Assembly (NCBI GenBank): GCA_035450765.1
Contig: DAOTNL010000003.1
Location: 1 to 39,538, forward strand
Direction of reading: 5' to 3'
From: Kiritimatiellia bacterium
GTDB lineage: Bacteria; Verrucomicrobiota; Kiritimatiellia; CAIQIC01; Lenti-01
DNA: 39,538 bases
In this document: positions 18,775 through 39,538 of the stretch, one piece after another
Position numbering within the stretch: position 1 is the first letter of the stretch
Layout of the letters: every line of letters begins with the position of its first letter
Position numbers and translations under genes: made by a program
The notes under the pieces: generated by a model
The model's input: only the letters and a program-made list of their open reading frames with translations
Databases searched by the model: none
Told to the model about the DNA's origin: nothing

Positions 18775-18802
18775 GATTTCCTCCAAAACGTTTAGTGCGG
18801 GC

Positions 18803-18873: not shown

Positions 18874-20040
18874 TCAGTAGAGGAGGATGTCGGCCCATGC
18901 GCGTCCTTCGGCGGTGAATTGCCAGGTGCCGCCGCTTTGGGCGAAGTAGCGCCGGCCGTTGTTGCCGAGCACGGCGGGATCGACCCGCAGGACGGCCTGG
19001 CGCTGGTTGCCGAGCCGGGCGGTTTCGGCCGCGGTGGCGTTGCGGCCGGCGAGGGGCAGGCCGGATTCGGACAGTTTCAGGAAAAGCGGACCGCCGTCGT
19101 GCGGGGCTCCTTGCCACAGGGCCGGAAAGCGGCGGAAATAGTCCGGCGTTTTGCCGCGCAGCACGACTTCGCAGGCAACGGGCACCGCCGCCAGATGCGC
19201 GGCCATGGTCAGGCCCGGATCGCGGGAGTGGGCGGCATAGAAAACGAGCGGATCGATGGCGAACAGGTTGTGGCCGTGGTAGTTCCCGAAATCGGGGGAG
19301 AGCTTTTCCTCGCGGTGCTTGATCTCGTAGCGGGAGTTCAGCAGCAGGCCGATTTCCCAGTGCAGATGGCTGCGCTCGCGCGGGATGGGCGGCTGGGTGC
19401 TGCTGGTGTTGCCGAGGGTGCCGATTTCGTCGCCGGGCTCGACCGCGTGGCCGGGGCGGATGCCGAAGCGGACGTCGGCGAGGTGGCCATAGAGGGTATA
19501 GACCGTGGCCGGCACGCTGGTGCCGTCGCGTTTCTCGACCTGGCCGAGGGACGGGTCGGGATGCTCGATCACGACGTATTTGCCGTAGGTGGATTTGCCG
19601 CCGACGGTGTTCACGAACGCGACGCGGCCGGCGGCGACGGCAAAGACCGGATCGGTCGCGACACCCTTGCGGTCGCGCTGCGTGGCGGCGATGTCCACGC
19701 CCTCGTGGAACACGGGCACCAACCGTCCACCGCGCAGGCCCGTGCGGGTGGAGCCGAACTTGGCGGATTCCAGCCGGCCCGAGCCGGTGGGTTGCAGGAC
19801 GCCCGGTTCGTCCGGATTCAGAAGATTCTGCTGCGGAGTGGGCGTGGCCAGCCGCTGCCAGACGGGCGGCGGCGGCCGCGGCGGTTCGGGGGCTTCCGCC
19901 GCGACGGGCTCGGGCGCGGCCGGCAGGCGGCAACCGCCTTGGCGGAGGGCCAACCAGCGGAACAAAAAGAAATCCAGCGCCAACAGGGGAACGATCCAGA
20001 CCAGATGGCGCAGAGGGGACTTGCGCGCGGGCATTCGCAT
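18874..20040 (-). CDS. M23 family metallopeptidase with ~150-aa C-terminal extension
   Basis: 388 aa. N-terminal TM helix (LVWIVPLLALDFFLF). HEGVDI (HxxxD) and HLHWE (HxH) catalytic motifs are intact. Confidence 0.85.
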   Translation of the reverse strand: MRMPARKSPLRHLVWIVPLLALDFFLFRWLALRQGGCRLPAAPEPVAAEAPEPPRPPPPVWQRLATPTPQQNLLNPDEPGVLQPTGSGRLESAKFGSTRTGLRGGRLVPVFHEGVDIAATQRDRKGVATDPVFAVAAGRVAFVNTVGGKSTYGKYVVIEHPDPSLGQVEKRDGTSVPATVYTLYGHLADVRFGIRPGHAVEPGDEIGTLGNTSSTQPPIPRERSHLHWEIGLLLNSRYEIKHREEKLSPDFGNYHGHNLFAIDPLVFYAAHSRDPGLTMAAHLAAVPVACEVVLRGKTPDYFRRFPALWQGAPHDGGPLFLKLSESGLPLAGRNATAAETARLGNQRQAVLRVDPAVLGNNGRRYFAQSGGTWQFTAEGRAWADILLY

Positions 20041-22235: not shown

Positions 22236-23021
22236 ATGCTGACGACCAAACGCTTCGACTACGTGCCGTTCGACCGGGTGCATCTGCACCCCTCGGTGGC
22301 CAACCACCGGCCCCTCAACGAGGCCAAGGTGGCCCATTACGCCGAGGACATCCTCCGCAACGGACTGCTGGAGCCCATCGTGGTCTGGGAACGCAATCCG
22401 GGCGAGTTCTTCCTCGTCGGCGGCTTCCACCGGCACAACGCCATCCGGCGCATCCGGGCCCAGAATCCGGGCTACTTCGACCGGGTGGACGTGCGCGTCG
22501 TCCACGGCGAACTCGACGAGATCCAGGCCCTGAACCTCAAGCTGAACGCCGACCGCCTCGACGCGCGCATCACGGACTACTTCGACGCCGTCATCTTCAT
22601 GGCCAACGCGAACTGGGACGTCCAGCGCATCGCGCGGTTCCTGGACAAGAGCGCGGCGTGGATCGAAGACATCTTGCGCTATGCGCCGGGCATGGATTCC
22701 CGCGTGCGCCGCATGCTCGAAGCCGGCGAGATCAGCTGGGCCAAGGCCAAGGAGGTCTGCAAGGCGGTTCTGGCCGCGCCGGCCGGCCAGGAGCGCGCCG
22801 CCCTCGACGCCGCGCTGGCCCGCCTCCGGACGCCCGCCGAAAAAGCGCCGCGGCTGCTGACCTACCGCGCCGCCGCCAAGCGCCTGAAAGCGCGAAAGGA
22901 ACCCTTCCGGGTCACGGGCGAAGACCTCGCGGCTCTCCTGCAGGTTCTCCGCGGCAAGACCGCGGCGCCGGAAACGGTGGAGCGGGTCCGCGCCGCTTTC
23001 CCGGGCCTGCTGGATTCCTGA
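22236..23021 (+). CDS. ParB/Srx N-terminal domain protein (orphan, no parA)
   Basis: 261 aa. LLEPIVVWERNPGEFFLVGGFHRHNAIRRI resembles the ParB N-domain GxxRxxA box. Helical C-terminal half. Confidence 0.7.
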   Translation: MLTTKRFDYVPFDRVHLHPSVANHRPLNEAKVAHYAEDILRNGLLEPIVVWERNPGEFFLVGGFHRHNAIRRIRAQNPGYFDRVDVRVVHGELDEIQALNLKLNADRLDARITDYFDAVIFMANANWDVQRIARFLDKSAAWIEDILRYAPGMDSRVRRMLEAGEISWAKAKEVCKAVLAAPAGQERAALDAALARLRTPAEKAPRLLTYRAAAKRLKARKEPFRVTGEDLAALLQVLRGKTAAPETVERVRAAFPGLLDS

Positions 23022-27549: not shown

Positions 27550-28641
27550 TTAAAGGATCGTTTCGCGGTTCTGCTGGGTCCGCAACCGGGCCAACAGCCC
27601 CTTGATGTCCTGGGACCGGGCCTTGCTGCAGACCAGCGTCACGCCTTCGGCCTGGACGACCACCAGGTCGTCCACGCCGACGAGCGCCGTCAGCCGGCCA
27701 TCGCTGACCACGATGTTGCGGGCGCTGTCCAGCGCCTCCACGTCGCCCTTCGTGGCGTTGCCTTGGCCATCCTTGGGCAAATGGGATTCCAGCGCCGGCC
27801 AGGAGCCGACGTCGTCCCAGGCGAAGGTGCCTTTGCAGACCACGAGGTTGCGGGCTTTTTCCATGACCGCGTAATCGATGGAAATTTTGTCCAAACCGGG
27901 AAAATCGCGTTCCAGCGCCGCCTGGAACGCGGCGTCGTCCGAACAAGCCGACCAGGCTTCGATCCGTTCCGCCAACGCCGGCCGGAATTCCTCAAAGGCC
28001 TTGAGGATGTTGCGGACGGACCAGACGAACATCCCGGAATTCCAGGCATAGCGCCCGGTGGCCAAGTAGCCGCGGGCGGTTTCGGCGTCGGGCTTTTCCA
28101 CGAAGCGCCGGACCTGGAAAAATTCGACGTCGCCCGATTTCCGCCACCGGTCGCCGGCCTCGATGTAGCCGTAGGCGCTGCTGGGTTCCGATGGATTGAT
28201 CCCGATGGTCATCAGCACGTCGTTTTGCGCGCACAATTCCATGCCCCGTTCCAGGATGTCCCGGAACGTCGGCAGGTTGCCGATCACGTGGTCGGCGGTC
28301 AGGACGCAGAAGACCGCTTCGGGATCGCGCCGCTTGATCCAAGCGGCGCCGGCGGCGATGGCCGCCGCCGTGTCCCGCCCCACGGGCTCGCCCAGGACGC
28401 CGACCGGACTCCCCTGCCCCAGCATTTCGCGGATCGGAGCCACCAGGGATTCGTTCGTGACGATCAGGATCCGATCGGGAGCAACCAAGCCGGCCAGGCG
28501 GTCGACCGCCTGCAGGATCAAGGGCTTGCCGCCCGCCAGATCCAGCAATTGCTTGGGCCGTCGGGCCGTGCTCAGCGGCCAGAACCGCTCCCCTTTCCCG
28601 CCGGCCATGATGACCGCATAGGCATGTTGCAGATTTGCCAT
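27550..28641 (-). CDS. manC: Mannose-1-phosphate guanylyltransferase
   Basis: ORF 27550-28680 opens with a TTG start. ATG 28641 ([24 protein letters not shown]) gives the normal spacing to the GGxGxRxxPLS motif. Confidence 0.85.
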
Positions 28642-28653
28642 GACTTTCCCGGA

Positions 28654-28672
28654 TTTTCCACGTCGCGGAAAA
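28654..28672. promoter_or_regulatory. 19-bp palindrome TTTTCCACG-T-CGCGGAAAA (second copy of the 4024 motif)
   Basis: Read directly. Lies 12 nt upstream of the manC ATG. The 21-mer matches 4024-4044 at 19 of 21 positions. Confidence 0.45.
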
Positions 28673-28739
28673 ATGTTCAACGCTATTTCCGTGCCGAAAT
28701 TTCGGAGGTCGGCACGGTGGCCTTGCCCGGCATCGGCCG

Positions 28740-31031
28740 CTATGGCGATGCGTCCTCGGGACGGGCGTTCGACAACGCCGCTTCCAGCTCTTTGCGGGCG
28801 TCTTCCAGCTTCTTTTCCAGGACGCGGGCTTCTTCGGTCAAGCGCGCCATGCGTTCCTCGGCCGCCTGGCGGGCGGACCTTTCGGCCTCGATCCGCGCGG
28901 CGTCTTCCGCCGGTTTCGCGGCAGTCGGTTCGGCGGGCGGGGCCGGCAAGGTCGCTTCCGGCTTCTGGCTTTCCAGGCGGCGCAGGTCTTCCGCCACGCG
29001 CGCCATTTGCTGTTCGGCCTCGCGCCGCGCGGCCTCTTCGGCGACCAAACGCGCCGCGGCCGCTTCGGCGATGAGTTGTCCTTGCCGGGCGGCATCCCGG
29101 GCGGCGCGCAACTCGGCTTCCCGCCGGGCGTTTTCGGCCGCGGCTTGCGCAGCCAGTTCGGCCACCCGGGCCGCCGCCTGCATTTCGGCTTCTTGCTGGA
29201 TCCGGATACGGTTGGCTTCGGTCTGCAAATTCAGGATTTCGCTCTCCAGCCGGGCAATATTCCGTTCGACCGTTTGGCGCGATTGCTCCTCTTGGGCCAG
29301 CATCCGGGCGGCTTCGCCCGCCATTTCATTGCCGCGCACGGCCATTTCGCGGGTGATCCGCAACACTTCGTCCTGCTGGGCGGCTTGAGCTTCCAGTTGC
29401 GCCTGGCGCGCGGCGGCCCGGGCCGCTTCCTGTGCGGCCATTTCGCTGCGGATTCGTTCGAGGGTCGCCGCTTTTTCGGCTTCGATGGTTCGCACTTCGG
29501 CCTCGGCGGTGCTTTGGCGCGCGGCAAGTTCGGCCAGTTGACGCTCCGCGGCCTGGCGGCGAGCCTGCTCCACCGCGATGATGCGTTCGAGTTCCTGGGC
29601 CTCGCGGATGGCGTTTTCGGCCTGTCGCTTTTCCGCGGCGATCCGTTCCGCCTCCTCCTGCAAGCGGCGGGCATCGGCTTCGGCCTGCGCGGCAATGGCC
29701 CGGGCTTGCGCCTCGGCTTCCTCGCGGGCGCGGGCCTCGGCCTTCCGGCGCTCCCGTTCCGCCTGCGCGGCGGCCTTGGCGGCCCGAGCCTCTTCTTCGG
29801 CGCGACGCTCCGCTTCGAGACGCGCCTGCTTTTCGGCAGATCTCCGTTCCTCTGCTTCGAGCTTCGCCTTCCGTTCGGCCGCAGCCTTCTGTTCGGCGGC
29901 AATGCGGCGGGCATCGGCTTCGGCCTGCGCGGCAATGGCCCGGGCTTGCGCCTCGGCTTCCTCGCGGGCGCGGGCCTCGGCCTTCTGGCGCTCCCGTTCC
30001 GCCTGCGCGGCGGCTTTGGCGGCCCGAGCCTCTTCCTCGGCGCGGCGTTCGGCTTCTAGACGCGCCTGCTTTTCGGCCGCCTTCTTTTCCTTGGCTTCCA
30101 ACTTGGCCTGTTCTTCTTGGGCCAGGCGCTGGGCTTCGGCGTTCGCTTCCGCTTCGGCTTTCTGGCGTTCCCGTTCCGCTTGTGCAACGGCTTTGGCCTC
30201 TTCTTCGGCGCGGCGCTCGGCTTCGAGGCGCGCCTGCTTTTCGGCCGCCTTCCGTTGCTTGGCTTCCAGTTTGGCTTGCCGTTCGGCTTCCGCCTTCTGT
30301 TTGGCGACCGCGGCTTTATCCTTCGCTACGGCTTCTTCGCGGGCCCGTGCGGCGGCCTTGGCGGCCTGCGCCTCTTTTTTGGCGCGCTTCTTGGCCTCCA
30401 ACCGGGCCTGTTTTTCCGCGGTTTTATTGTCGGCAGCCTCGGCCGGAGCGGCCTGTTCCGCAGTCGGCGGGGGGGCCTCCACGGAAGGCGGCAGCACGAC
30501 TTCAAATCCTCCCTCTCCTCCTCCGGCGTCCAGGATCTTCGCCTCGATGAGCGGCGGCGATTCGCCCGTTTGCTCTGCCGCCGGGGTTGCTTCAGGATGC
30601 GGCGCAAAAGCATCCACCCATTGTTCGCGACCGGCTTCTTCCGTACGGATAAAGCAGGCATCGACGACGACATGGAATTCTCCATCCGTCTGATCGACGA
30701 TTCCCGCAAAGAAATAGTCCCGGCTAGGATCGAGGTTTTGGAACGGCCGGGTCAAATGGGCGGGAACCCAAACCAAGCCGGCGCCGGCCAATTTCATGGC
30801 GCGATGCCGAACGCCGTCTCCGAGTTTTTTCGCCGGTCCCGAAGGCGGAGTCTCGATTTTGTCCGGAAACGAGATCGCGCGCGCCCACCAATTGCCGGGA
30901 TTCGCCTGGAGCTCGGCCGCATCGACTTTGGCATAGGCCGCCATGTCCGGCCGCGCCGCCGCTTGATGGGATGCCGATCCCACCCATCCCAGCATGATCG
31001 CCAAGCACACGTATTTCGGTTTCATCGGCAT
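28740..31031 (-). CDS. Exported E/R/A/K/Q-rich long-helix repeat protein (763 aa), paralog of the 851-aa gene
   Basis: Start at ATG 31031 or, better spaced from the GAGG SD, ATG 31025 (MKPKY...). Signal peptide, then a ~100-aa N-terminal domain shared with the 31975-34530 product, then ~550 aa of AEKQARLEAERRAEEEA-type repeats. Confidence 0.7.
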   Translation of the reverse strand: MPMKPKYVCLAIMLGWVGSASHQAAARPDMAAYAKVDAAELQANPGNWWARAISFPDKIETPPSGPAKKLGDGVRHRAMKLAGAGLVWVPAHLTRPFQNLDPSRDYFFAGIVDQTDGEFHVVVDACFIRTEEAGREQWVDAFAPHPEATPAAEQTGESPPLIEAKILDAGGGEGGFEVVLPPSVEAPPPTAEQAAPAEAADNKTAEKQARLEAKKRAKKEAQAAKAAARAREEAVAKDKAAVAKQKAEAERQAKLEAKQRKAAEKQARLEAERRAEEEAKAVAQAERERQKAEAEANAEAQRLAQEEQAKLEAKEKKAAEKQARLEAERRAEEEARAAKAAAQAERERQKAEARAREEAEAQARAIAAQAEADARRIAAEQKAAAERKAKLEAEERRSAEKQARLEAERRAEEEARAAKAAAQAERERRKAEARAREEAEAQARAIAAQAEADARRLQEEAERIAAEKRQAENAIREAQELERIIAVEQARRQAAERQLAELAARQSTAEAEVRTIEAEKAATLERIRSEMAAQEAARAAARQAQLEAQAAQQDEVLRITREMAVRGNEMAGEAARMLAQEEQSRQTVERNIARLESEILNLQTEANRIRIQQEAEMQAAARVAELAAQAAAENARREAELRAARDAARQGQLIAEAAAARLVAEEAARREAEQQMARVAEDLRRLESQKPEATLPAPPAEPTAAKPAEDAARIEAERSARQAAEERMARLTEEARVLEKKLEDARKELEAALSNARPEDASP
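29664..30077 (-). repeat. Two ~174-bp near-identical coding copies (29664-29837 and 29904-30077), 240-bp period
   Basis: Line-by-line comparison at offset 240 shows 7 mismatches in 174 nt. A third, more diverged partial copy lies at about 30178-30283. Confidence 0.85.
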
Positions 31032-31135
31032 GCCTCTTCTCTCGAAAAACCGCTTCCGGCTTCTGGACCGCGGCCATCCGCAATGATCCTACATGGGTTG
31101 GCTGGACTTGCAAAGGGCTTTCGCGGGGTTGGCCA

Positions 31136-31999
31136 TCAATAGGACATGGGTTGCGCCCACTCGGGATCGGCTCCGGAACCCGCCGGCAAGAGTAGCGGTA
31201 GTGGCGGGGAAACCTGGCCGGCGGCACTTGGGGTGCGGCGGGTGTCCTGCGCCTCGGCGGCGCGGCTCGCCCGACGCGCCAGCCGTTCCTGCCGGTCGCG
31301 CTCTTCCTCCAGTAGAGCCTGTTGCCGGACTTGCCGCTCGGCTTCGGCCTGCTCTGCCCGCACCGTGGCGGCCTTGGTTTTCTCGGCCTCGGCGGCGAGC
31401 AAAGCCGCGGTGGCCGCCGCCTTGCGGTCGGCTGCGGTTTTCAGGCGGCGCTCCTGCGCCGCGCGCTGGACGCGGGCCGCCGCGGCTTGTTTTCGCAAGG
31501 ATTCCGCTTCGCGTTTGGCCTGCGCCGCTTCGCGTTCTTTTTGCTTGGCGGCCAGCGCTCGAGCCGAGCGCTGGGACGCGGCCTGCCGCGCGGCTTCGCG
31601 TTGGGCGGTTTTCTCGGCGGCGGATCGGGCCCGTGCGTACTCCCGGGCCAATTGCTTCTCGGTTAATCGGCGCTCGCGTTCGGCCTGTTGCGCTTCCTGT
31701 TCGATCCGGCGGATGTCCCGAGCCGCGCGCCGGTCGTATTGTTCGCGCTCGCGCTGTTTGCGGGCGGCCGTTTGCCGGACCTGTTCCCGCTCCCAGGGGG
31801 TCGGTTCCGTGCTGACCAGCGACACCACGTTCGGCCTTCCCGTGGTATCCGGAACGGGCTTGCGCGACTGCGGAGACGCGGGCCCGGAATGGGCGCAACC
31901 CAGAATGAAGCCCGCCATCCAAACGCCGGCGAAGGCCAAGATTGACCGCGGCCGCCGCGGGGATTCGAAGCCGCCTAGAACTGGACCGGCTGCATCCAT
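31136..31999 (-). CDS. Lipoprotein with E/R/A/K/Q-rich helical body (287 aa)
   Basis: RRPRSILAFAGVWMAGFILGC lipobox, then a charged helix (REREQYDRRAARDIRRIEQEAQQAERERR...). Tail DPEWAQPMSY. The start overlaps the upstream gene by 25 nt. Confidence 0.6.
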   Translation of the reverse strand: MDAAGPVLGGFESPRRPRSILAFAGVWMAGFILGCAHSGPASPQSRKPVPDTTGRPNVVSLVSTEPTPWEREQVRQTAARKQREREQYDRRAARDIRRIEQEAQQAERERRLTEKQLAREYARARSAAEKTAQREAARQAASQRSARALAAKQKEREAAQAKREAESLRKQAAAARVQRAAQERRLKTAADRKAAATAALLAAEAEKTKAATVRAEQAEAERQVRQQALLEEERDRQERLARRASRAAEAQDTRRTPSAAGQVSPPLPLLLPAGSGADPEWAQPMSY

Positions 32000-34530
32000 T
32001 CGGGCAATTCGCCGGAATCGATGGCCTTTTGCAATTCTTCCGCAGCCTGGATCTTCGCTTTTTCGGCCTGGGCTTTCTTCTCGGCCGCTTCGGCTTGGGC
32101 GGCGGCTTTCGCGGCTTCCTTGGCGGCGCGCTCGGCCTCGAGCTGCGCCTTTTTCTCGGCGGCAGCCTGCTTGCGTTTTTCAAGTTCCGCTTCTTTTTCC
32201 GCCTGGGCGGCCAGCCGTTTCCGATTCGCCTCTTCCGCCTTTTCGTCCTTCGCGGATTCCGCGGAAGCCGGTTCGGGCTGCGCCAGTTCCGGGGCCGGTT
32301 CTGCGGCCGGCAGCGCCACGACCGGAGCCAAGCCGTTCTTGATTTCCGTCTTGGTGCGCTGGGTCTGGTTTTCCAGTTGGCGGGTTTCCGATTCCACCTG
32401 GGCCATTTGGCGTTCGATTTCCTCGGCGGCGGCTTTTTCTTCCGCAATGCGCGCGGCGGCGGCTTCGGCTTCCCGGCGTTCGAATTCGGCGACTTCCTGG
32501 GCGATGCGGATGGATTCTTCCTGCCGGGCCTTTTCGGCGGCCAGCTGGGCTGCGCGCTCGGCGGCGGCCGCGGCGGCCTTGGCGGCAACTTCTTCCTGCA
32601 TCTTCTGCAGCGCCGCTTGCTTGGATTCCTCCACGGCGCGCAGCGCCGCTTCGGCTTCCGCCTTGCGGGCGACCATCTCCGCCAACCGTTGTTCGGTCGC
32701 GATCCGCTTCGCGGCGGCCGCTTCCACCTGCTTGCGGAGCTCTTCGGCGCGGCGCATGGCCAATTCAGCCTGTTTTTGCTCCTCGCGGATGCGTTCTTCG
32801 GCGATTTTCTGCTGCTTGCGGGCTTCGGCTTCCGCCTTGCGGGCTTCCGCCTGCGCCTTGCGTTCGGCGAGTTCGCGCGCCTCGGCTTCCGCTTCGGCTT
32901 TCTCGCGCTCGGCGCGCTCGCGGGCGATCTGGGCGCGCCGGGCTTCCTTTTCGGCGCGCTTGGCTTCCTTGGCGGCCTTGGCCTCGGCGATTTCGCGTTC
33001 GCGCTCGGCGATGGCCGCCATTTTCCGGATGCGGGCCAGTTCTTCCTTGGTCGGCTCCACGCTGACCATCGGCACGACTTCGGGCTGCCCCGTCAGCGGC
33101 ATGACCAGCATGCTGCTCGGCGGCGGAGCCACTGGGCCGGGGGTCGTTTCCGGACCCGCGGGCGCGACGAACTCGGCCGCTTGCGCTTGCTGGATTTCTT
33201 CATCGAGCGTCGGCCCCGGCTGGAATTCGAGCGTCGTTTCGACCTCTTCCGGCGCCGGCATCGGCTCGGGCATGGCGGATTCCGCCGCGACCGGTTCCGC
33301 AACGGGCGGTTCGACGGCCAGTTCTTCCGCGGGCGCCAGTTCAGCGGACTTCTTCGACTTCTTGTGCTTCTTCTTACTCTCTTTTCGGTCGGGAGTTCCC
33401 TCGTCCGCGGCGGCGATCGCCGTCGGCTCGGTCGCGGCCGCTTCTGCCACCGCGGGTTCGACGGACACCGGCACTTCCGCGGGCGTTTCCACGGCGACTT
33501 CCGGAGCGGCGGCGACCGGTTCTTCCGCCGCGACTTCCGGCGCCGCTTCGACGGCGGGAGCGACCGCCGCTTCTTCAGTAGCCACGGCTTCCGGAACGAC
33601 GGCCGGCTCTTCCGGCGCCGGGGCTTCTTCCGGCGTTTCGGGCTGCGGAGCGACGGCGACTTCCTCGACCACGGCCGCAGGCGCTTCCTCCACGACGGCC
33701 GCCGGCGGTTCAGGCGCCGGGACGGCATCTTGGACCGGCGGCGCAACCGGCGCGGGCTCGGCGGGTGCGATCGGCTCCGCCGGGGGCAAGGCCTGCGCGG
33801 CGTTCTGCTCCGCCACCTGGCGCGACTCGTCGAGAACGGCTTGCTTCTGGAGCAGCGCCAGCACCGAGCCGATCATCAGCTCCTCCGCGGTCTTGTTCTG
33901 GGCCTTCAGTTCGCCCTGCAGCGCATCGGCCACGAGTTTCTCCGCGATGCGCTGGCCGCCGTCGGTTTGGGCTTCGATGAGCTGGGCCACGGTCACGTTG
34001 CTTTCCTGGGCCAGCTGGATGAGGCGATTCTGGGCCTCGAGCAACAGGGCCTGCATCGCCGTTTCGGAAAGCCGGGCCTGAGCGTCCGCAGGCGTGTTTT
34101 CGGCGTTGAGCATGTCCGTCCAGCGCTCGCTCATGTCCTGCGCGGTCTGCACCCGGTAGCACGCGTCCACGATGACGTAGTAGCGCCGCGAGATCTGGTC
34201 CACCGTGCCGGCGAACGAATAGGTCTGGCCGACCTGGAGATTCATGAATTTGCCCGCCAGCGCTTCCGGCACCCAGACGGTCTTCGCCGTCGCCAATTTC
34301 ATCGGCAGGAAATTCTTGCGGTCGAGGCGCTGGGGCCGGCCGGCCGGGAGCTGCTCGACGACGTCGGAGAACAGAATGGCGCGCGCCCAGGCGCTTTGCG
34401 GGCTGCTGACCAGAGACGCCGCCTCGATCTTGGAGTAGGAATCCGGAGAAGGAGCCGTGCCGGCCGCCCAGGCCAGGGCTCCTGCCGCCATCCCCGTCGC
34501 CATCGCCAAGGCCATTTTTTTCGGTTTCAT
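31975..34530 (-). CDS. Exported multi-region protein (851 aa): shared N-domain, acidic P/A/E/V spacer, E/R/A/K/Q-rich helix
   Basis: MKPKKMALAMATGMAAGALAWA signal peptide. N-domain is collinear with the 763-aa paralog (WARAI, VWVP, FAGxVDQ, VDAC). KKKHKKSKKS patch. About 350 aa of charged helix. Tail LPEWMQPVQF. Confidence 0.7.
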   Translation of the reverse strand: MKPKKMALAMATGMAAGALAWAAGTAPSPDSYSKIEAASLVSSPQSAWARAILFSDVVEQLPAGRPQRLDRKNFLPMKLATAKTVWVPEALAGKFMNLQVGQTYSFAGTVDQISRRYYVIVDACYRVQTAQDMSERWTDMLNAENTPADAQARLSETAMQALLLEAQNRLIQLAQESNVTVAQLIEAQTDGGQRIAEKLVADALQGELKAQNKTAEELMIGSVLALLQKQAVLDESRQVAEQNAAQALPPAEPIAPAEPAPVAPPVQDAVPAPEPPAAVVEEAPAAVVEEVAVAPQPETPEEAPAPEEPAVVPEAVATEEAAVAPAVEAAPEVAAEEPVAAAPEVAVETPAEVPVSVEPAVAEAAATEPTAIAAADEGTPDRKESKKKHKKSKKSAELAPAEELAVEPPVAEPVAAESAMPEPMPAPEEVETTLEFQPGPTLDEEIQQAQAAEFVAPAGPETTPGPVAPPPSSMLVMPLTGQPEVVPMVSVEPTKEELARIRKMAAIAEREREIAEAKAAKEAKRAEKEARRAQIARERAEREKAEAEAEARELAERKAQAEARKAEAEARKQQKIAEERIREEQKQAELAMRRAEELRKQVEAAAAKRIATEQRLAEMVARKAEAEAALRAVEESKQAALQKMQEEVAAKAAAAAAERAAQLAAEKARQEESIRIAQEVAEFERREAEAAAARIAEEKAAAEEIERQMAQVESETRQLENQTQRTKTEIKNGLAPVVALPAAEPAPELAQPEPASAESAKDEKAEEANRKRLAAQAEKEAELEKRKQAAAEKKAQLEAERAAKEAAKAAAQAEAAEKKAQAEKAKIQAAEELQKAIDSGELPEWMQPVQF

Positions 34531-34610
34531 AGTTGGGCTGTCTTCTCCAAAAATATTCGTTATTTGTATATCGCCCCGGGGGGCGAGGCAAGCCTATCCT
34601 CGTCAAGATT

Positions 34611-35972
34611 TCAGCCAGCCGGCGGGGGTGTTTTCCCTTGCCGGGCGGCTTTTCGGAGGCCGTTCCAATGCTCGAGGCGCTTGCGGATGACCTCTTCGTA
34701 GCCCTCCGAGGTCGGCTGATAGTAGATTTTATCGGTCGGCACGTATTCCTGATCCACGAAATGCCCCTCGAAATCGTGGGCATACCGGTACCCCTGGTGC
34801 CCGAACGCCTGGGCGGCGCGCTTGGACCCCGTGCTGCGCAAGTGCTTGGGCACCGGCAGGGTCCGCCCTTCCTTCACGTCGGCCGTGGCGGCCTCCAGCC
34901 CCATGTAGGCCGCGTTGCTCTTGGGCGCCGTCGCCAGATAGGTCGTCGCCTGCGCCAAGGCGATCCGCGCCTCGGGCATGCCCACGAAGTCCACGGCTTC
35001 GAGCGCGGCCACGGCCACGCTCAGCCCGCGCGGATCGGCGTTGCCGACGTCCTCGCTGGCCAAAATGACCAGCCGGCGCGCCACGAACCGGGGGTCCTCC
35101 CCCGCGTAGAGCATCTTGGCCAGCCAGTAGAGCGCCGCGTTCGGATCCGAGCCGCGCACGCTCTTGATGAACGCCGAAATGGTGTCGTAGTGCCCGTCCT
35201 CGTCGTGGTCGTACACGACGGCTTTCTTCTGGATGCTTTCTTCCGTCACCGCGCGCGTGACGCGGATGATTCCGTCCGGGCCCGGCGCGGTCGTGAGCGC
35301 GGCGATCTCCAGCGCGTTGAGCGCGCGGCGCCCGTCGCCTTCGCACACGGCGGCCAGATGCGCCACCGCCGCGTCGTCCATCGCGATCTTCAGGTGCCCC
35401 AGCCCTTCCGGATGCGCCAGCGCCCGCCGCAGCAGTTGCGCCACCGCCTCCGCGTCCAGCGGCTCGAGCTGGAAGATCTGGCTGCGCGACGTCAGCGGGT
35501 TGTTGATGAAGAAAAACGGGTTGTGGGTCGTCGCGCCGATCAGCGTGACCGCCCCCTCCTCCACGTACGGCAGCAGGACGTCCTGCTGGGCCTTGTTGAA
35601 GCGGTGGATCTCGTCGATGAACAAAATCGTCTCGCGGCCCGACGCCGCGCGGCGCTGCTTGGCGGCTTCCAGCGATTGCCGCAGGCCCGCCACGTTCGAC
35701 AGCACGCCGCTCGACCGGTCGAACGCCCGGCGCGTCGTCCGCGCGATGACTTCCGCCAGCGACGTCTTGCCGCAGCCGGGCGGGCCGTAGAGGATGATGC
35801 TCGACAGGCGGTCGGCCTCGATGGCCCGGCGCAGCAACTTGCCGGGACCGAGGACGTGGTCCTGGCCGACGATGTCTTCCAGCGTGCGCGGGCGCATCCG
35901 CGCCGCCAAGGGGCGGCGGGTGGCGTCGAAGTCCGGCTTGTCCGCCGGGGCAGGCTCGAAGAGATCGCTCAT
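34611..35972 (-). CDS. rarA: Replication-associated recombination protein A (AAA+ ATPase)
   Basis: 453 aa. Walker A GPPGCGKTSLA, Walker B/sensor FIDEIHRFNKAQQD, and the C-terminal MgsA helical domain (YDHDEDGHYD...SAFIKSVRGSDPNAALYWL). Confidence 0.95.
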   Translation of the reverse strand: MSDLFEPAPADKPDFDATRRPLAARMRPRTLEDIVGQDHVLGPGKLLRRAIEADRLSSIILYGPPGCGKTSLAEVIARTTRRAFDRSSGVLSNVAGLRQSLEAAKQRRAASGRETILFIDEIHRFNKAQQDVLLPYVEEGAVTLIGATTHNPFFFINNPLTSRSQIFQLEPLDAEAVAQLLRRALAHPEGLGHLKIAMDDAAVAHLAAVCEGDGRRALNALEIAALTTAPGPDGIIRVTRAVTEESIQKKAVVYDHDEDGHYDTISAFIKSVRGSDPNAALYWLAKMLYAGEDPRFVARRLVILASEDVGNADPRGLSVAVAALEAVDFVGMPEARIALAQATTYLATAPKSNAAYMGLEAATADVKEGRTLPVPKHLRSTGSKRAAQAFGHQGYRYAHDFEGHFVDQEYVPTDKIYYQPTSEGYEEVIRKRLEHWNGLRKAARQGKTPPPAG

Positions 35973-36074: not shown

Positions 36075-36638
36075 CTAGAACTGGACGGTCGGCGCCGTTT
36101 CGGCGCCCTGGGCGGCCGCGAACGGAGCCCGGGTCTGGAACCCCGCCAAACGCGCCACGAGGGCCGTCGGGAACCGCCGAATGGCCACGTTGTAGGCTTG
36201 CACCGATTCGTTGAAACGCTGGCGCTCGACGTTGATCCGGTTTTCGGTCCCGGCCAGCTCGTCCTGCAGAGCGATGAAGTTCTGGTTGGCCTTCAGATCG
36301 GGATAATTCTCCACCACGACCATCAGTCGGCTCAGCGCGCCTTCCAGGCCGGAGGCCGCCTCGACCTTTTCCGAAGTCGACTTGGCTTCGCCCCACTGGC
36401 TGCGCAGTCGGGTGATTTCTTCCAGGATGCCCTTTTCGTGCTGGGCATAGCCCTTCACCGTGTTGACCAGGTTCGGGATCAGGTCGAACCGGCGCTGCAG
36501 CACCGACTCCACGTTGCCCCAGGCTTTCTTGCAGGCCTCGTCCTTGTCCACGACGCCGTTGTACATGCCCATCGCCATCAAGCCGACGACGATCGCCAGC
36601 AGAACCGCCACGCCGCCCGCCACCAAACAACCCTTCAT
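36075..36638 (-). CDS. lemA: LemA family protein
   Basis: 187 aa. N-terminal TM helix, then RRFDLIPNLVNTVKGYAQHEK and ENYPDLKANQNF, the LemA signatures. Confidence 0.9.
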   Translation of the reverse strand: MKGCLVAGGVAVLLAIVVGLMAMGMYNGVVDKDEACKKAWGNVESVLQRRFDLIPNLVNTVKGYAQHEKGILEEITRLRSQWGEAKSTSEKVEAASGLEGALSRLMVVVENYPDLKANQNFIALQDELAGTENRINVERQRFNESVQAYNVAIRRFPTALVARLAGFQTRAPFAAAQGAETAPTVQF

Positions 36639-37423
36639 GCTGACGTTCCTTTCCGTTGACTTTCCAAATCACCAGCGCCCGCCCGCCCCGCCGCCGCCCG
36701 AGCGTCCGCCGCCGAATCCGCCAAAACTGCTGCCGCCCCCGCCTCCGCCGCCGCTCCAGCCACGGCCGGAAAACCCGCCCCCGGAAATTCCGCCGCTGGA
36801 AATTCCCCCCCACCCTTGCCGCCGCGGATCGCCGACCGGACGATCAGGATGAACACGATGGCGAAAATGAACAGAAACACGATGGCGGCCAGCGGATTTT
36901 CCTCCGGCGCGGCGGGCTCCGGCAGCGTCTCGCCGCCCATGACGCGCAGCAAGGCGTCGGCGCCGTCGCTCAGGCCCCGCGCGTAGTCGCCTCCCTTGAA
37001 GCGCGGAAGAATCCACTCGTCCCGGATGCGCCCGCACTTGGCGTCGTTCAGCACGCCTTCCAACCCGTAGCCGACTTCGATCCACATCGCGCGGTCCTCG
37101 ATCGCCGCCAGCAGCAGGACGCCGTTGTCCTTGCCTTTCTCGCCGATGCCCCATTGCGCGAACAGCTTGACCGCGAAATCGTTGATATCGCCCCCTTGCA
37201 GCGATTTCAAGGCCACGACCGCCAGTTGCGCGCCGGTCGCCTGGCGCACCGCGGCGATGCGGCTTTCCAGATCGGCCTTTTGCGCGGGCGTGAACACCCC
37301 CGCCCAGTCGCTCACGTGGCCTTGCGGGACCAGGCTCTCGCGGAACCGGTCCGATTCGATCTGCGCATGGGCGCCCGCCGCGGCCAACCAGATCGCGCAC
37401 GCGATGAAACGGAAAATTCTCAT
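36635..37423 (-). CDS. TPM-domain protein (YgcG-like); the 3' end is probably in the wrong frame (see finding)
   Basis: Signal peptide; VSDWAGVFTPAQKADLESRI...QLAVVAL...GVLLLAAIEDRAMWIEVGYGLEG matches the TPM fold; TM helix LAAIVFLFIFAIVFILIV. The canonical Gly-rich tail ending GGGGAGGRW lies in the other frame (stop 36669). Confidence 0.75.
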   Translation of the reverse strand: MRIFRFIACAIWLAAAGAHAQIESDRFRESLVPQGHVSDWAGVFTPAQKADLESRIAAVRQATGAQLAVVALKSLQGGDINDFAVKLFAQWGIGEKGKDNGVLLLAAIEDRAMWIEVGYGLEGVLNDAKCGRIRDEWILPRFKGGDYARGLSDGADALLRVMGGETLPEPAAPEENPLAAIVFLFIFAIVFILIVRSAIRGGKGGGEFPAAEFPGAGFPAVAGAAAEAGAAAVLADSAADARAAAGRAGAGDLESQRKGTSA

Positions 37424-37888: not shown

Positions 37889-39283
37889 TCAGAACGCTTC
37901 GCGGTTCCGGCGCTCTTCGAATTCGTCCACGGCTTTCTGCATGCGGGTGCGCGGCAGATCGGCCGCGGCGGGATCCGGCGCGGCGAGATCCCCGGGCGCC
38001 GCCCGGTCGAACGAATCCACGTAGCGCTTGCGGTTCTGGTGCGATTCGAGAAACGCCTGATGGGCGCGCTCGGCGCGCAGCCAGAGCTGGTTGAGCGCCA
38101 CCTGCCAGGTCGCGTCGTCGGGCGGGCGCAGGGCGCCGTCCTCTTTTCTTTCGCGCTGCCACCAGGCCTTTTTTTCGGCCGGGGGCGTGCCGAGCTGCTC
38201 GAAGAACGCGACGTAGGAGGCCAGCACGCCCAGCAGGGCCGGCGGCGCGCCCAATTCGAGACTGCGGACCTGCATCGCCAGCGCGCCCGCCAGCGGCGGC
38301 GTCCACGACTCCCCGCGCAAGTCGATCAAGTCCCGCGCGAAGAGTTCCTGCGGCACGTCGTCGGGCACGGCCTCCAGCCAGTCCCGCGGCCGGAAATTCA
38401 GGGTTTGCAGGAGCTTTTCCTCGATCTGGAGCGAACGGTCGCCCCACGCTTCCGCGGTGCGCGCGCGCGCCTTGCGTTCGAGGAACTCCTTCCAGACGGC
38501 TTCCGGATTCCGCGCGCCCAGCGCGGCGCAGTTCTGCCGCAGCCAGGCGGCATCGATGGGCTGGCGCAGGCCGACGGACTTGAACAGCGCCGTCCACGCG
38601 CGGGCGTCGCCGTCGGGAAACAGCAATTCGACGGCGGCGGCGGCATAGGCTTTTTCGCGCCAGCGGCCGGAAGGCAAGACCTCCTGCTTGACCACCTGCG
38701 CCAGCGGCAGGATGCGGCCCTCGGCCAGTTCGCGGGCGATCCATTCGCGGTTGCGCGCGCGGCCGGCCGCCTGCGCGTTCTGCGCAAGTCCGGCGGAAAT
38801 CCAGTCCGGGACGGTCGCGCCCAGGCCGTGGCGTTGGCTGGCCGGCGCGTACTCGGCGGCATAGCGGTTCAGCAGCAACCAGGTGGCGCCTTCCAGCAGG
38901 TCCTCTTCGTCGAGCTGCCGCGCGCCGGGAACGACGAGCCGCTGGTAGAACTGGCCGTCGTCCCAGCCCTGCACCTTGAGCACCCGGGCGTCGGGCGCGG
39001 ACGAACTCTGGACCATGACGCCGAGAATCTGGTCCCGCCGCATCGGCAGCGGCAGCCCGGCGGCGGCCTCGATCCGGGCGGCGTGCTCGGACAGCTTGCG
39101 CGCCAGCACCATGTTTTCGGCGGACGACAGGCCCGACACCATGAACCGGCGGTCGGCGCTGGTGATCGCCGCGCGGCCGGGCTTGCCCGCGGGCCAGGCG
39201 GGCGGCGCATCCGCCTGTCCCAGCGCGGCGCAGGCGCAGGCGCCCGCCAGCAGGATTCCGCAGATGGACCGGCGTCCCGTCAT
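37889..39283 (-). CDS. Secreted hypothetical protein (~464 aa)
   Basis: ORF 37889-39385, with start moved to ATG 39283 (MTGRRSICGILLAGACACAALGQA signal peptide), 2 nt after the ettA stop. No family recognised. Confidence 0.55.
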   Translation of the reverse strand: MTGRRSICGILLAGACACAALGQADAPPAWPAGKPGRAAITSADRRFMVSGLSSAENMVLARKLSEHAARIEAAAGLPLPMRRDQILGVMVQSSSAPDARVLKVQGWDDGQFYQRLVVPGARQLDEEDLLEGATWLLLNRYAAEYAPASQRHGLGATVPDWISAGLAQNAQAAGRARNREWIARELAEGRILPLAQVVKQEVLPSGRWREKAYAAAAVELLFPDGDARAWTALFKSVGLRQPIDAAWLRQNCAALGARNPEAVWKEFLERKARARTAEAWGDRSLQIEEKLLQTLNFRPRDWLEAVPDDVPQELFARDLIDLRGESWTPPLAGALAMQVRSLELGAPPALLGVLASYVAFFEQLGTPPAEKKAWWQRERKEDGALRPPDDATWQVALNQLWLRAERAHQAFLESHQNRKRYVDSFDRAAPGDLAAPDPAAADLPRTRMQKAVDEFEERRNREAF

Positions 39284-39285
39284 CG

Positions 39286-39538
<253 letters not shown>

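What the first reader, a model, noticed from the sequence alone, without database searches (positions are those of the whole stretch)
28740..34530. Tandem array of three exported E/R/A/K/Q-rich long-helix proteins: candidate uncharacterised envelope system
Seen: three consecutive minus-strand genes (851, 287 and 763 aa; about 5.8 kb, roughly 15% of the window). Each begins with an export signal: MKPKKMALAMATGMAAGALAWA, the lipobox GFILGC, and MKPKYVCLAIMLGWVGSASHQAAA. Each then runs for hundreds of residues built almost only from E, R, A, K and Q with i/i+4 opposite charges (for example AEKQARLEAERRAEEEARAAKAAAQAERERQKAEARAREEAEAQARAIAAQAEADARR). The two large proteins share an N-terminal globular domain. 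The 851-aa and 287-aa proteins share a C-terminal PEWxQPxx[FY] tail. The first two genes overlap by 25 nt. No catalytic domain is visible. No tolQ/tolR/tolB/pal neighbours and no TolA-type N-terminal anchor or C-terminal domain were recognised. Established: such ER/K patterns form stable single alpha-helices or long coiled coils that act as rigid spacers. Inference: a paralogous family of envelope-spanning struts, rulers or scaffolds, possibly lineage-specific. It is co-oriented with GDP-mannose synthesis downstream and preceded by a hairpin plus an AT-rich promoter-like stretch (34540-34590).
Basis: partly seen in the sequence, partly recalled or inferred. Interest (0 to 1): 0.75.

Follow-up and report, generated by a model that had tools for sequence, protein, structure and literature searches.

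The report
Exported head-spacer-tail protein family, tandemly expanded
Three neighbouring genes in an uncultured Kiritimatiellia bacterium encode real exported proteins with very long charged helices, and they belong to an undescribed family built from a conserved folded head, a spacer of very variable length and a conserved C-terminal peptide, whose function is still unknown.

Summary
Three minus-strand genes (851, 287 and 763 aa) are real: substitutions against orthologues fall mainly on third codon positions, and dN/dS is 0.17, 0.49 and 0.21.

The interpretation needs revising. Only the 851-aa gene (P1) is ancestral. It lies between rarA and manC in all 27 related Kiritimatiellia/Verrucomicrobiota loci found. 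The lipoprotein P2 and the 763-aa P3 occur only in the closest relatives and look like recent tandem derivatives.

P1 consists of:
- a signal peptide;
- an OB-fold barrel plus a helical domain (AlphaFold pLDDT 94-98 over the barrel);
- a roughly 220-aa acidic Pro/Glu/Ala/Val stretch;
- an ER/K segment that looks like a single helix;
- a roughly 150-aa amphipathic coiled-coil block shared with P3;
- an invariant C-terminal tail, LPEWMQPVxF.

An exhaustive profile search finds 242 cluster representatives with the same head. About half of the best 150 end in P-[VLIMA]-x(1-2)-[RWFY], against 1.3% expected by chance. None matches Pfam, NCBIfam, PHROGs or a solved structure by sequence. Spacer length runs from about 70 to over 800 residues, so a fixed-length ruler is unlikely. 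TolA, Lpp and tape-measure membership fail.

My best reading, which is inferred, is a two-ended periplasmic adaptor or tether. P2 keeps the tail on a lipid anchor, and P3 keeps the head without a tail.

The parts
31975..34530 (-). P1, 851 aa. The ancestral family member: signal peptide, OB plus helical head, acidic linker, helices and C-terminal tail.
   Evidence: ORF. Orthologues lie between rarA and manC in 27 of 27 loci. dN/dS 0.17. The exact protein is found on 14 public contigs.
34465..34530 (-). P1 Sec-type signal peptide (aa 1-22, MKPKK...LAWA).
   Evidence: Read from the sequence. 144 of 150 family members have a signal-like N-terminus directly before the head.
34126..34443 (-). P1 OB-fold barrel (aa about 30-135).
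   Evidence: AlphaFold pLDDT 94-98. Foldseek matches generic OB folds at E 3e-5 to 6e-4. Invariant residues P44, F54, D56, F106 and G108.
33790..34083 (-). P1 helical domain (aa 150-247), the second half of the conserved head.
   Evidence: Among the most conserved parts across orthologues, with identity to the window residue of 0.71-0.86 per 20-aa block. Conserved across the wide family. Model pLDDT about 77-86.
33139..33789 (-). P1 acidic Pro/Glu/Ala/Val-rich variable linker (aa 248-464) with one Lys-rich patch.
   Evidence: Composition. Low conservation and many gaps. dN/dS 0.28.
33031..33138 (-). Conserved pre-helix segment (aa 465-500, ...MPLTGQPEVVPMVSVEPTKEEL), also present in P2 aa 39-75.
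   Evidence: Conservation 0.63-0.77. Aligned to P2.
32794..33030 (-). P1 ER/K segment that looks like a single helix (aa 501-579).
   Evidence: 51-57% charged and 6-17% hydrophobic. No 3.5-residue hydrophobic periodicity. The i/i+4 opposite-charge enrichment of z 4.4 was measured over aa 495-730 as a whole.
32341..32793 (-). P1 amphipathic coiled-coil-like block (aa 580-730), homologous to P3 aa 462-612.
   Evidence: 40% identity to P3. Hydrophobic periodicity of 3.55 residues, z 6.8.
31978..32010 (-). P1 C-terminal tail ELPEWMQPVQF-COOH.
   Evidence: PEWMQPVx[FY], with rare conservative variants (PDWMKPIRY, PEWLQPVIF, PEWMEPVYF), in all orthologues whose C-terminus is present. A generalised motif is present in 77 of 150 family representatives against 1.3% background.
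31136..31999 (-). P2, 287 aa. A putative lipoprotein with no head, a basic Arg-rich helix and the tail DPEWAQPMSY. Overlaps P1 by 25 nt.
   Evidence: Orthologues only in L001, L002 and L003. dN/dS 0.49. The start codon is uncertain.
31895..31999 (-). P2 lipoprotein signal (aa 1-35, RRPR n-region, hydrophobic core, FILGC).
   Evidence: Read from the sequence. I matched it by eye to the PROSITE-type lipobox pattern. An L-x-G-C box is kept in L001 and L002 and lost in L003.
28740..31031 (-). P3, 763 aa. Signal peptide, OB head without the helical domain, about 490 residues of helix, no PEW tail.
   Evidence: dN/dS 0.21. The head is lost in the L003 orthologue.
29660..30109 (.). 240-nt tandem repeat (1.9 copies, 90% matches) encoding the 80-aa ER/K unit inside P3.
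   Evidence: Tandem Repeats Finder. The L001 orthologue carries more copies of the unit.
29187..29654 (-). P3 amphipathic coiled-coil-like block (aa 460-615) shared with P1.
   Evidence: Periodicity z 4.2. 40% identity to P1 aa 579-729.
34563..34591 (-). Conserved promoter-like element TTGC-N17-TATACAAA upstream of P1.
Evidence: The only exact match in the window. The hairpin is not significant.
34611..35972 (-). rarA/mgsA, the conserved upstream neighbour.
   Evidence: Pfam MgsA_C, E 7.5e-66. Synteny.
27550..28680 (-). manC (mannose-1-phosphate guanylyltransferase), the conserved downstream neighbour, followed by a rubredoxin gene.
   Evidence: Pfam NTP_transferase plus ManC_GMP_beta-helix. 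Rubredoxin. Synteny.

Best explanation
The region encodes three exported paralogues of an undescribed modular protein family found in Kiritimatiellia and Verrucomicrobiota.

The family plan, which is shown, has four parts:
- a Sec signal peptide;
- a conserved head, made of an OB-fold barrel plus a helical domain;
- a spacer that varies greatly in length and composition;
- a short conserved peptide at the extreme C-terminus. It is LPEWMQPVxF in this subfamily and [DE]-hydrophobic-x-x-P-[VLIM]-x(1-2)-[RWFY] more widely.

In this subfamily the spacer is an acidic Pro/Glu/Ala/Val stretch, then an ER/K segment that looks like a single helix, then a roughly 150-residue amphipathic coiled-coil block.

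The proposed mechanism is inferred. I read the protein as a two-ended periplasmic adaptor or tether. The head would bind one envelope ligand and the C-terminal peptide would dock into a second partner as a short linear motif. The spacer would supply reach and flexibility rather than a fixed distance.

In this window and its nearest relatives the plan has been duplicated and split. P1 is complete. P2 keeps the pre-helix segment, a helix and the tail, but has a lipoprotein anchor in place of the head. P3 keeps the head and the shared coiled-coil block but has no tail. This suggests that the three can co-assemble through the coiled-coil block, or through head and tail contacts, into a membrane-anchored complex.
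For: Real genes:
- Third-position substitutions dominate in every segment.
- dN/dS is below 0.5 for all three genes and 0.07 for the P1 head.

Export:
- The three N-termini look like signal peptides.
- 144 of 150 family members have a signal-like N-terminus.

Head:
- AlphaFold gives pLDDT 94-98 over the barrel.
- Foldseek hits are all OB folds.
- The 35-sequence alignment shows OB and helical domains conserved together down to about 20% identity.

Tail:
- It is near-invariant in all complete P1 orthologues, down to 52% head identity.
- 77 of 150 representatives end in the generalised motif, against 1.3% at random internal positions.
- Every complete ORF that carries the exact tail in a metagenome scan also has the head.

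Spacer:
- Members range from 212-237 aa to over 1000 aa with the same head and tail.
- Spacer length also changes through a tandem repeat.

Composite rod:
- The ER/K parts are 5-11% hydrophobic and show no 3.5-residue periodicity.
- P1 580-730 and P3 460-615 show strong periodicity (z 6.8 and 4.2) and are 40% identical to each other.

Split architecture of P2 and P3.

Ancestral status of P1: synteny in 27 of 27 loci.
Against: - No ligand or partner has been identified for either the head or the tail.
- No envelope gene is a conserved neighbour. The neighbours are rarA and manC here, and rpsO-pnp-nth in distant members.
- Localisation is inferred from signal peptides only, and the P2 lipobox depends on an uncertain start codon.
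- A complete subgroup of the family lacks the tail and ends ...MEREIERQMRR.
- The L003 orthologue of P3 has lost the head and is only a signal peptide plus helix, so the helices may have a function of their own.
- Covariation between tail class and head residues could not be separated from phylogeny.
- No expression data were examined.
Confidence: 0.45

Rival explanations
1. Head-to-tail self-assembly. The C-terminal peptide docks into the OB head of another molecule, much as the acidic C-terminal tip of bacterial SSB can bind its own OB fold. The proteins would then chain or network in the periplasm. P2 (lipid anchor plus tail) would be a membrane-attached starter and P3 (head only) a cap.
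For: - Head and tail almost always occur on the same polypeptide.
- The only tail-only protein (P2) and the only head-only protein (P3) occur together in the same genomes.
- P3's head keeps all the invariant head residues although P3 has no tail of its own.
- Foldseek hits include RPA32, Stn1, SSB and PriB type OB folds.
Against: - Co-occurrence of P2 and P3 is a single evolutionary event in one small clade.
- The covariation test was uninformative: 68 of 72 nearest neighbours share the same tail class.
- There is no sequence similarity to SSB (hhalign probability 0.3%).
- No complex prediction could be run.
Confidence: 0.2
2. A glycan-associated envelope or surface protein. The OB head binds an oligosaccharide or polysaccharide such as peptidoglycan strands, LPS core or exopolysaccharide. 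The protein would organise or retain a polysaccharide layer, and the charged and acidic spacer would act as a hydrated brush.
For: - manC (GDP-mannose synthesis) is the conserved downstream, co-oriented neighbour in nearly all Kiritimatiellia loci that extend far enough.
- One family member (P0048) fuses the same OB domain (E 1.4e-25) to Poly_export and SLBB domains of a Wza-like polysaccharide export protein.
- Paralogue content, repeat number and sequence turn over quickly (dN/dS up to 0.49), as is common for surface-associated proteins.
Against: - The manC link is absent in the distant branch, where the synteny is rpsO-pnp-nth-X.
- The fusion is a single case.
- No carbohydrate-binding family matches.
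- There is no signal for secretion beyond the periplasm.
Confidence: 0.15
3. One reading: rigid envelope-spanning struts or rulers, analogous to Lpp or TolA domain II, that set the spacing of the periplasm.
For: - Long ER/K and coiled-coil helices.
- P2 looks like a lipoprotein with a helix and a conserved C-terminus.
- There is a weak TolA-model hit to P2's helix (22.8 bits).
Against: - Spacer length is not conserved. It runs from about 70 to over 800 residues within one family, and repeat number changes between close relatives.
- P1 carries about 220 residues of probably disordered linker.
- P3's roughly 490-residue helix would be about 70 nm long if continuous. By my recollection the periplasm is only about 25-30 nm wide.
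- The TolA and Lpp defining features are absent.
Confidence: 0.08
4. A periplasmic or extracellular nucleic-acid-binding protein. The OB fold would bind DNA taken up or present outside the cell. The architecture would mirror SSB: an OB fold, a disordered linker and a C-terminal tip that recruits partners.
For: - The best structural matches are ssDNA-binding OB folds.
- The immediate upstream neighbour is a DNA-maintenance gene in both branches: rarA here and nth in distant members.
- Distant members carry basic and aromatic motifs of the LSWWQRR type and Lys-rich patches.
Against: - Foldseek TM-scores are low (0.2-0.55) and the fold is generic.
- The head has only about +3 net charge by my own count, and the spacer is strongly acidic.
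- Neighbourhood with rarA or nth may simply be inherited synteny.
- There is no similarity to SSB, ComEA or other DNA-uptake proteins.
Confidence: 0.05
5. An artefact: the long ORFs are chance open frames in GC-rich low-complexity DNA, or the opposite-strand ORFs are the real genes.
For: Long antisense ORFs exist (31942-34701+, 919 aa; 29007-30059+) and have a similar GC1/GC3 pattern.
Against: - Codon-position substitution pattern and dN/dS below 0.5 in the minus frames.
- A confidently folded N-terminal domain.
- Conserved start context, signal peptides and a C-terminal motif placed directly before the stop codon in dozens of genomes.
- The antisense translations are Gly/Phe/Leu/Arg-rich mirror images.
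Confidence: 0.01

Closest known systems
TolA (domain II) of the Tol-Pal system
   Same: A long Ala/Glu/Lys/Arg-rich helix located in the periplasm, with variable helix length. The NCBIfam tolA_full model gives a weak hit to P2's helix (E 4.6e-5, 22.8 bits).
   Different: - The score is far below the family cutoff of 59.45 bits and covers only the low-complexity helix.
- The N-terminus is a cleavable signal peptide or a lipobox, not a TolQR-interacting membrane anchor.
- There is no TolA C-terminal domain.
- There are no tolQ, tolR, tolB or pal genes nearby.
Braun's lipoprotein Lpp (outer membrane to peptidoglycan tether and periplasm ruler)
   Same: P2 looks like a lipoprotein followed by a helix and a conserved C-terminal end, which could link a membrane to a second partner.
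   Different: - P2 is 287 aa, whereas Lpp is about 58 aa by my recollection.
- P2's helix is basic and lacks heptad periodicity.
- The C-terminal residue is Tyr or Phe within a PEWxQP motif, not the Lys that is cross-linked to peptidoglycan.
- There is no Pfam LPP match.
- The lipobox depends on an uncertain start codon.
Bacterial SSB (OB fold, disordered linker and conserved acidic C-terminal tip ...DDDIPF)
   Same: The same three-part logic: an N-terminal OB fold, a linker of variable length and low complexity, and a short conserved C-terminal peptide made of acidic residues, a hydrophobic residue, a Pro and usually a terminal aromatic. Foldseek matches include SSB, RPA and PriB type OB folds.
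   Different: - The family is exported.
- There is no sequence similarity (hhalign probability 0.3%; no Pfam SSB match).
- An extra helical domain is present.
- The spacer contains long helices.
- Any nucleic-acid binding is untested.
Periplasmic bacterial OB-fold (BOF) proteins such as YgiW and YdeI
   Same: A small OB-fold domain exported to the periplasm. PDB 3f1z, deposited as a putative nucleic acid-binding lipoprotein (my assignment of it to the BOF family is from memory), is among the better structural matches (TM 0.51-0.55 normalised to the target, E 4e-3 to 9e-3).
   Different: - There is no Pfam BOF match.
- BOF proteins are single-domain proteins of about 130 aa, by my recollection, with no helical domain, spacer or C-terminal motif.
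ER/K single alpha-helix (SAH) domains, for example in myosin VI/X and caldesmon
   Same: Segments with 50-60% charged residues, 5-11% hydrophobic residues, significant i/i+4 opposite-charge enrichment (z 4-5) and no heptad periodicity.
   Different: - By my recollection the known examples are mostly eukaryotic and cytoplasmic.
- Here the segment is one part of an exported composite rod that also contains a true amphipathic coiled-coil block.
- Stability as a monomeric helix is untested.

Membership tests
TolA | N-terminal transmembrane anchor that couples to TolQ/TolR | tested here: not met
   P1 and P3 start with Sec-type signal peptides that have Ala-x-Ala sites. P2 has a lipobox.
TolA | C-terminal TolA domain III, with a full-length match to the tolA model | tested here: not met
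   No Pfam hit at E<=1. TIGR02794 scores 22.8 bits against a cutoff of 59.45, only on P2's helix.
TolA | Gene context tolQ-tolR-tolA-tolB-pal | tested here: not met
   The window's genes are housekeeping and none is a tol or pal gene. The conserved neighbours are rarA and manC.
Lpp (Braun's lipoprotein) | Lipoprotein signal with a lipobox | tested here: inconclusive
   FILGC is present if translation starts at 31999, and the box is kept in L001 and L002 but lost in L003. Public gene calls start downstream of it.
Lpp (Braun's lipoprotein) | Short trimeric coiled coil with heptad periodicity | tested here: not met
   P2's helix is about 180 aa, has net charge +18 and shows no 3.5-residue hydrophobic periodicity.
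Lpp (Braun's lipoprotein) | C-terminal Lys for cross-linking to peptidoglycan | tested here: not met
   P2 ends in ...DPEWAQPMSY and its orthologues end in Y or F.
ER/K single alpha-helix | High charge density with i/i+4 opposite charges above what composition predicts, and no hydrophobic seam | tested here: met
   P3 205-460 gives z 5.0 at i/i+4, with 5-7% hydrophobic residues and no periodicity. P1 501-579 has 6-17% hydrophobic residues and no periodicity, and its i/i+4 enrichment (z 4.4) was measured over aa 495-730 as a whole. Not met for P2 (z 1.2) or for the coiled-coil blocks.
ER/K single alpha-helix | A stable monomeric helix in solution | not testable with these tools
   Needs circular dichroism, SEC-MALS or SAXS on purified fragments.
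Phage tape-measure protein | Similarity to phage families and a prophage gene context | tested here: not met
   No PHROGs hit at E<=0.01. The flanks are rarA, manC and other housekeeping genes in conserved synteny.
OmpH/Skp | Match to the OmpH family model | tested here: not met
   No Pfam or NCBIfam hit.
Bacterial OB-fold (BOF, YgiW/YdeI) | Match to the BOF family model, single-domain protein of about 130 aa | tested here: not met
   No Pfam hit. Only a fold-level resemblance to 3f1z (TM 0.51-0.55, E 4e-3 to 9e-3).
SSB | SSB-type OB fold detectable by sequence | tested here: not met
   hhalign probability 0.3% against E. coli SSB. No Pfam SSB hit.
New family defined here (OB head, spacer, C-terminal PV tail) | Signal peptide, then OB barrel with the PQxxWAR.I.F.D and Y.F.GTV.Q motifs | tested here: met
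   P1 and P3 both carry the motifs. There are 242 representatives at E<=1e-3.
New family defined here (OB head, spacer, C-terminal PV tail) | Extreme C-terminal [DE]-hydrophobic-x-x-P-[VLIM]-x(1-2)-[RWFY] motif | tested here: met
   Met for P1 and P2. Not met for P3, which ends ...NARPEDASP.

The most novel reading that the evidence does not exclude
The family is a previously unrecognised class of periplasmic hub protein, conserved across Verrucomicrobiota and Kiritimatiellota, that works on the same logic as SSB. An OB head would bind a polymer or a partner, and an ultra-conserved C-terminal tip would either recruit other envelope proteins or bind the head of the next molecule. The result would be a self-assembling, lipid-anchored periplasmic scaffold. 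The P1/P2/P3 array would then be a natural split of the system into a complete unit, an anchor and a cap.
Probability: 0.15. Interest if true: 0.8.

Novelty: new variant of a known kind. Interest (0 to 1): 0.5.

Why it matters
The envelope biology of Verrucomicrobiota and Kiritimatiellota is poorly known, and most lineages that carry this family are uncultured. The loci recovered here come mainly from wastewater, digester and bioreactor metagenomes.

This work turns an anonymous low-complexity ORF cluster into a defined family with testable parts:
- a confidently folded OB plus helical head;
- a short C-terminal motif that is conserved between proteins whose heads share only about 20% identity;
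- a spacer that evolves freely.

Architectures of this kind usually mark hub or tether proteins. Finding the partners of the head and the tail could therefore reveal how these bacteria connect or organise their envelope layers.

The natural split into a lipid-anchored, tail-only paralogue and a head-only paralogue gives a ready-made experimental handle.

If the proteins turn out to be ordinary periplasmic fillers, the finding still documents a family that is missing from Pfam and NCBIfam.

Tried and rejected
- **Family libraries.** Pfam, NCBIfam and PHROGs scans of the three proteins gave nothing apart from a sub-threshold TolA hit on low-complexity helix. Pfam on ten distant members gave nothing apart from the Poly_export/SLBB part of one fusion protein.
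- **PDB by sequence.** Profile searches returned only low-complexity hits and weak TAL-effector repeat hits to the helical domain (E about 1e-5 to 1e-4, no stretch passing on its own). I judged these spurious.
- **Foldseek.** Only generic OB folds came back. No specific family could be assigned.
- **Word-indexed protein searches.** All three returned few hits, mostly fragments. The only organism labels were 'Kiritimatiellia bacterium' and 'Verrucomicrobia bacterium'. Cluster look-ups gave no names.
- **GC3 frame analysis.** It could not separate sense from antisense, because GC1 and GC3 are similar in these genes. I replaced it with substitution-by-codon-position and dN/dS analyses.
- **Covariation between tail class and head residues.** The classes follow phylogeny (68 of 72 nearest neighbours share a class), so the test was uninformative.
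- **PVC 'signature protein' CT421.2.** I checked it because of the PVC distribution. It is an unrelated protein of 53-80 aa.
- **Literature.** Searches for a described periplasmic protein of this kind found nothing relevant.
- **Upstream hairpin.** It is not more stable than shuffles and not conserved. No sigma-70 consensus site was found, and terminator-like sites were not above expectation.
- **SSB homology.** Rejected.

Full report
**1. The observation**

The three minus-strand ORFs are at the stated coordinates: P1 31975-34530 (851 aa), P2 31136-31999 (287 aa) and P3 28740-31031 (763 aa). The quoted signal sequences, the FILGC lipobox, the quoted ER/K stretch and the 25-nt overlap of P1 and P2 are all present. 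The ER/K stretch lies inside a 240-nt tandem repeat of 1.9 copies.

P1 and P3 share an N-terminal domain (39% identity over 169 aa, E 2e-30). They also share a helical block, P1 579-729 against P3 462-612, at 40% identity. P1 and P2 share a segment just before the helix and the PEWxQPxx[FY] end.

The window has about 67% GC and carries long antisense ORFs, so I tested which strand codes. GC3 does not discriminate, because GC1 and GC3 are similar in these genes. Two other tests do:
- Against five orthologous loci, substitutions concentrate on third codon positions of the minus frames in every segment. For example, the counts are 20/14/77 in the P1 helix against L001.
- Nei-Gojobori dN/dS against L001 is 0.17 (P1), 0.49 (P2) and 0.21 (P3). 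The flanking genes give 0.05 (rarA) and 0.13 (manC).

The genes are therefore real and under purifying selection. P2 is the least constrained.

**2. What is conserved and what is recent**

A scan of one genome per species found 27 loci, all labelled as Kiritimatiellia, Verrucomicrobiota or similar MAGs. In all 27 the P1 orthologue follows rarA. manC follows it wherever the contig extends far enough.

P2 exists only in L001, L002 and L003. P3-like genes exist only in those loci. L006 has a different, short second paralogue. Between these close relatives the paralogues change quickly:
- the L003 copy of P2 lacks the lipobox cysteine;
- the L003 copy of P3 has lost the OB domain;
- the number of 80-aa ER/K repeats in P3 differs between loci.

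P1 is therefore the ancestral gene, and the "array" is a young, unstable tandem expansion.

**3. Anatomy of P1**

An alignment of 25 orthologues and composition scans give this layout:

| Residues | Feature |
|---|---|
| 1-22 | Signal peptide |
| 30-135 | Conserved domain (OB barrel) |
| 150-247 | Very conserved helical domain |
| 248-464 | Poorly conserved acidic Pro/Glu/Ala/Val stretch with one Lys-rich patch.
| 465-500 | Conserved segment, also present in P2 |
| 501-730 | Helix |
| 736-760 | Pro/Ala hinge |
| 765-838 | Second helix |
| 841-851 | Tail ELPEWMQPVQF |

AlphaFold with a 68-sequence alignment gives pLDDT 94-98 for a beta-barrel (residues 51-126) and about 77-86 for the helices at 150-247. 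Foldseek against the PDB returns only OB folds: RPA32, Stn1, Ten1, the anticodon-binding domains of Asn/Asp/Lys-tRNA synthetases, and PDB 3f1z, deposited as a putative nucleic acid-binding lipoprotein. E-values are 3e-5 to 1e-2 and TM-scores 0.2-0.55. The fold is clear, but no specific family can be assigned.

The helical part is composite. Opposite charges at i/i+4 are enriched over shuffles in P1 (z 4.4) and P3 (z 5.0 and 4.2) but not in P2 (z 1.2). P1 495-580 and P3 205-460 are 5-11% hydrophobic and show no 3.5-residue periodicity, which fits an ER/K single helix. P1 580-730 and P3 460-615, the block the two proteins share, show strong periodicity (z 6.8 and 4.2), which fits a coiled coil.

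**4. The wider family**

An exhaustive HMMER search with the head profile found 242 cluster representatives at E<=1e-3, of which 146 are at E<=1e-10. Most of the distant ones are 300-550 aa. They have a signal peptide, the OB barrel and the helical domain, which are conserved together down to about 20% identity. After the head comes acidic, Pro-rich low-complexity sequence, often with basic motifs.

144 of 150 members have a signal-like N-terminus.

The most notable feature is the extreme C-terminus. 77 of the best 150 representatives end in P-[VLIMA]-x(1-2)-[RWFY and a few others]. Examples are LDADPSAPVPLR, DIYAPVGR, DLNSPVAW and LPEWMQPVQF. The rate at random internal positions is 1.3%. Many of the non-matching sequences are fragments or near variants.

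In a metagenome scan for the exact PEWMQPVx[FY]-stop sequence, every complete ORF that carried it also had the head.

Members with the same head and tail range from 212-237 aa (P0039, P0034) to more than 1000 aa. None of the distant members has a Pfam match, a source name other than "hypothetical protein" or a relative of solved structure by sequence.

**5. Genomic context**

The window contains housekeeping genes only: an M42 peptidase, asd, uvrB, coaX, RNase Y, ymdB, frr, pyrH, a TRAP transporter, rubredoxin, manC, rarA, a LemA/TPM pair and others. There are no tol/pal genes.

In the distant branch, seven of seven contexts examined place the gene downstream of, and co-oriented with, pnp and/or nth. 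The usual order is rpsO-pnp-nth-X.

No envelope gene is a conserved partner in either branch. The gene behaves as a stand-alone core gene with stable synteny.

The hairpin is no more stable than shuffles. I read the conserved element as a promoter of P1's own.

**6. Interpretation**

*Shown:* an exported, modular family with a conserved folded head, a conserved C-terminal short linear motif, and a spacer that is free to vary.

*Inferred:* this is the design of a two-ended adaptor or tether. The head binds one ligand, the tail docks into another, and the spacer provides reach.

The local array splits the design. P2 keeps the pre-helix segment and the tail but has a lipid anchor instead of a head. 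P3 keeps the head and the shared coiled-coil block but has no tail. This is compatible with co-assembly through the coiled-coil block, or with head-tail contacts between molecules.

The architecture parallels bacterial SSB (an OB fold, a variable linker and a conserved C-terminal tip). There is no sequence relationship, however, and the family is exported.

Rival readings that remain open:
- Head-to-tail self-assembly.
- A glycan-associated role. This is hinted at by the manC neighbour and by one fusion of the OB domain to a Wza-like export protein.
- Less likely, nucleic-acid binding.

A fixed-length ruler is disfavoured by the spacer variability and by the roughly 70-nm length of P3's helix if it is continuous.

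TolA, Lpp, Skp, BOF, SSB and tape-measure memberships were each tested and failed.

**7. Limits**

- No partner, ligand, localisation or expression evidence was obtained.
- P2's lipoprotein status depends on the upstream start codon, which public gene calls do not use.
- A test for covariation between tail and head was confounded by phylogeny.

**8. Verdict**

The real finding is a broadly distributed, undescribed head-spacer-tail family in Verrucomicrobiota and Kiritimatiellota, with a young tandem expansion in this lineage. Interest is moderate (0.5). It would be high if the head or the tail proves to organise the envelope.

Noticed in passing
L028-L030, L032, L034, L036-L039 (distant family members): In Verrucomicrobiota-type members with only 20-27% head identity, the gene lies downstream of and co-oriented with pnp and/or nth in 7 of 7 contexts examined, usually as rpsO-pnp-nth-X. 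Here the upstream neighbour is rarA. In both branches the neighbour is a nucleic-acid metabolism gene, and I have no explanation for that.
   Followed up: partly
P0048, locus L033 67-1845: One protein fuses the same OB domain (E 1.4e-25) to an N-terminal membrane anchor plus coiled coil and to C-terminal Poly_export and SLBB domains, as in a Wza-like polysaccharide export protein.
   Followed up: partly
Distant members P0055, P0058, P0066, P0068, P0073, P0089, P0146, P0052: The spacers contain two or three copies of a short basic and aromatic motif (for example PKRLSWRERRALAREE, LSWWQRRR, RRGWFRRG) set between acidic Pro-rich stretches. Many also have a Lys-rich patch shortly before the C-terminal motif.
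   Followed up: no
P0032 (502 aa): The tail occurs twice: once internally (PPPEWLQPVWMDG...) and once at the end (PPPEWMKPIGY), with the preceding helical segment duplicated as well.
   Followed up: no
window 17899-18831 (-) and 18874-20040 (-): A 310-aa protein with a membrane anchor, a canonical Gln/Leu/Glu coiled coil and a small C-terminal domain lies next to an M23 peptidase gene and upstream of frr and pyrH. This may be an EnvC/NlpD-like cell-division hydrolase pair. It is unrelated in sequence type to the three ER/K proteins.
   Followed up: partly
window 36075-37423 (-): A LemA-family gene followed by a TPM-domain gene lies directly upstream of rarA. The LemA gene also flanks rarA in the contigs that carry the identical P1.
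   Followed up: no
window 33790-34083 (P1 aa 157-216): Profiles of the helical domain give weak hits to TAL-effector repeats (E 1e-5 to 3e-4, no single stretch significant). The sequences NVTVAQLIEAQTDGGQRIAEKLV and LTPDQVVAIASNGGGKQALETV look alike. This is probably chance similarity between helix-loop-helix units.
   Followed up: partly
window 31895-31999; loci L058-L060: Public gene calls for P2 start downstream, giving 230 or 260 aa. That would remove the lipoprotein signal. The first eight codons from the ATG at 31999 overlap the conserved P1 tail, so their conservation is not independent evidence for that start.
   Followed up: partly
window 2568-3998 (+), 4045-5043 (+), 22236-23021 (+), 37889-39385 (-): Other genes with little or no annotation: a DUF4139/DUF4140 protein and three ORFs with coding-like GC3 but no Pfam match.
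   Followed up: no
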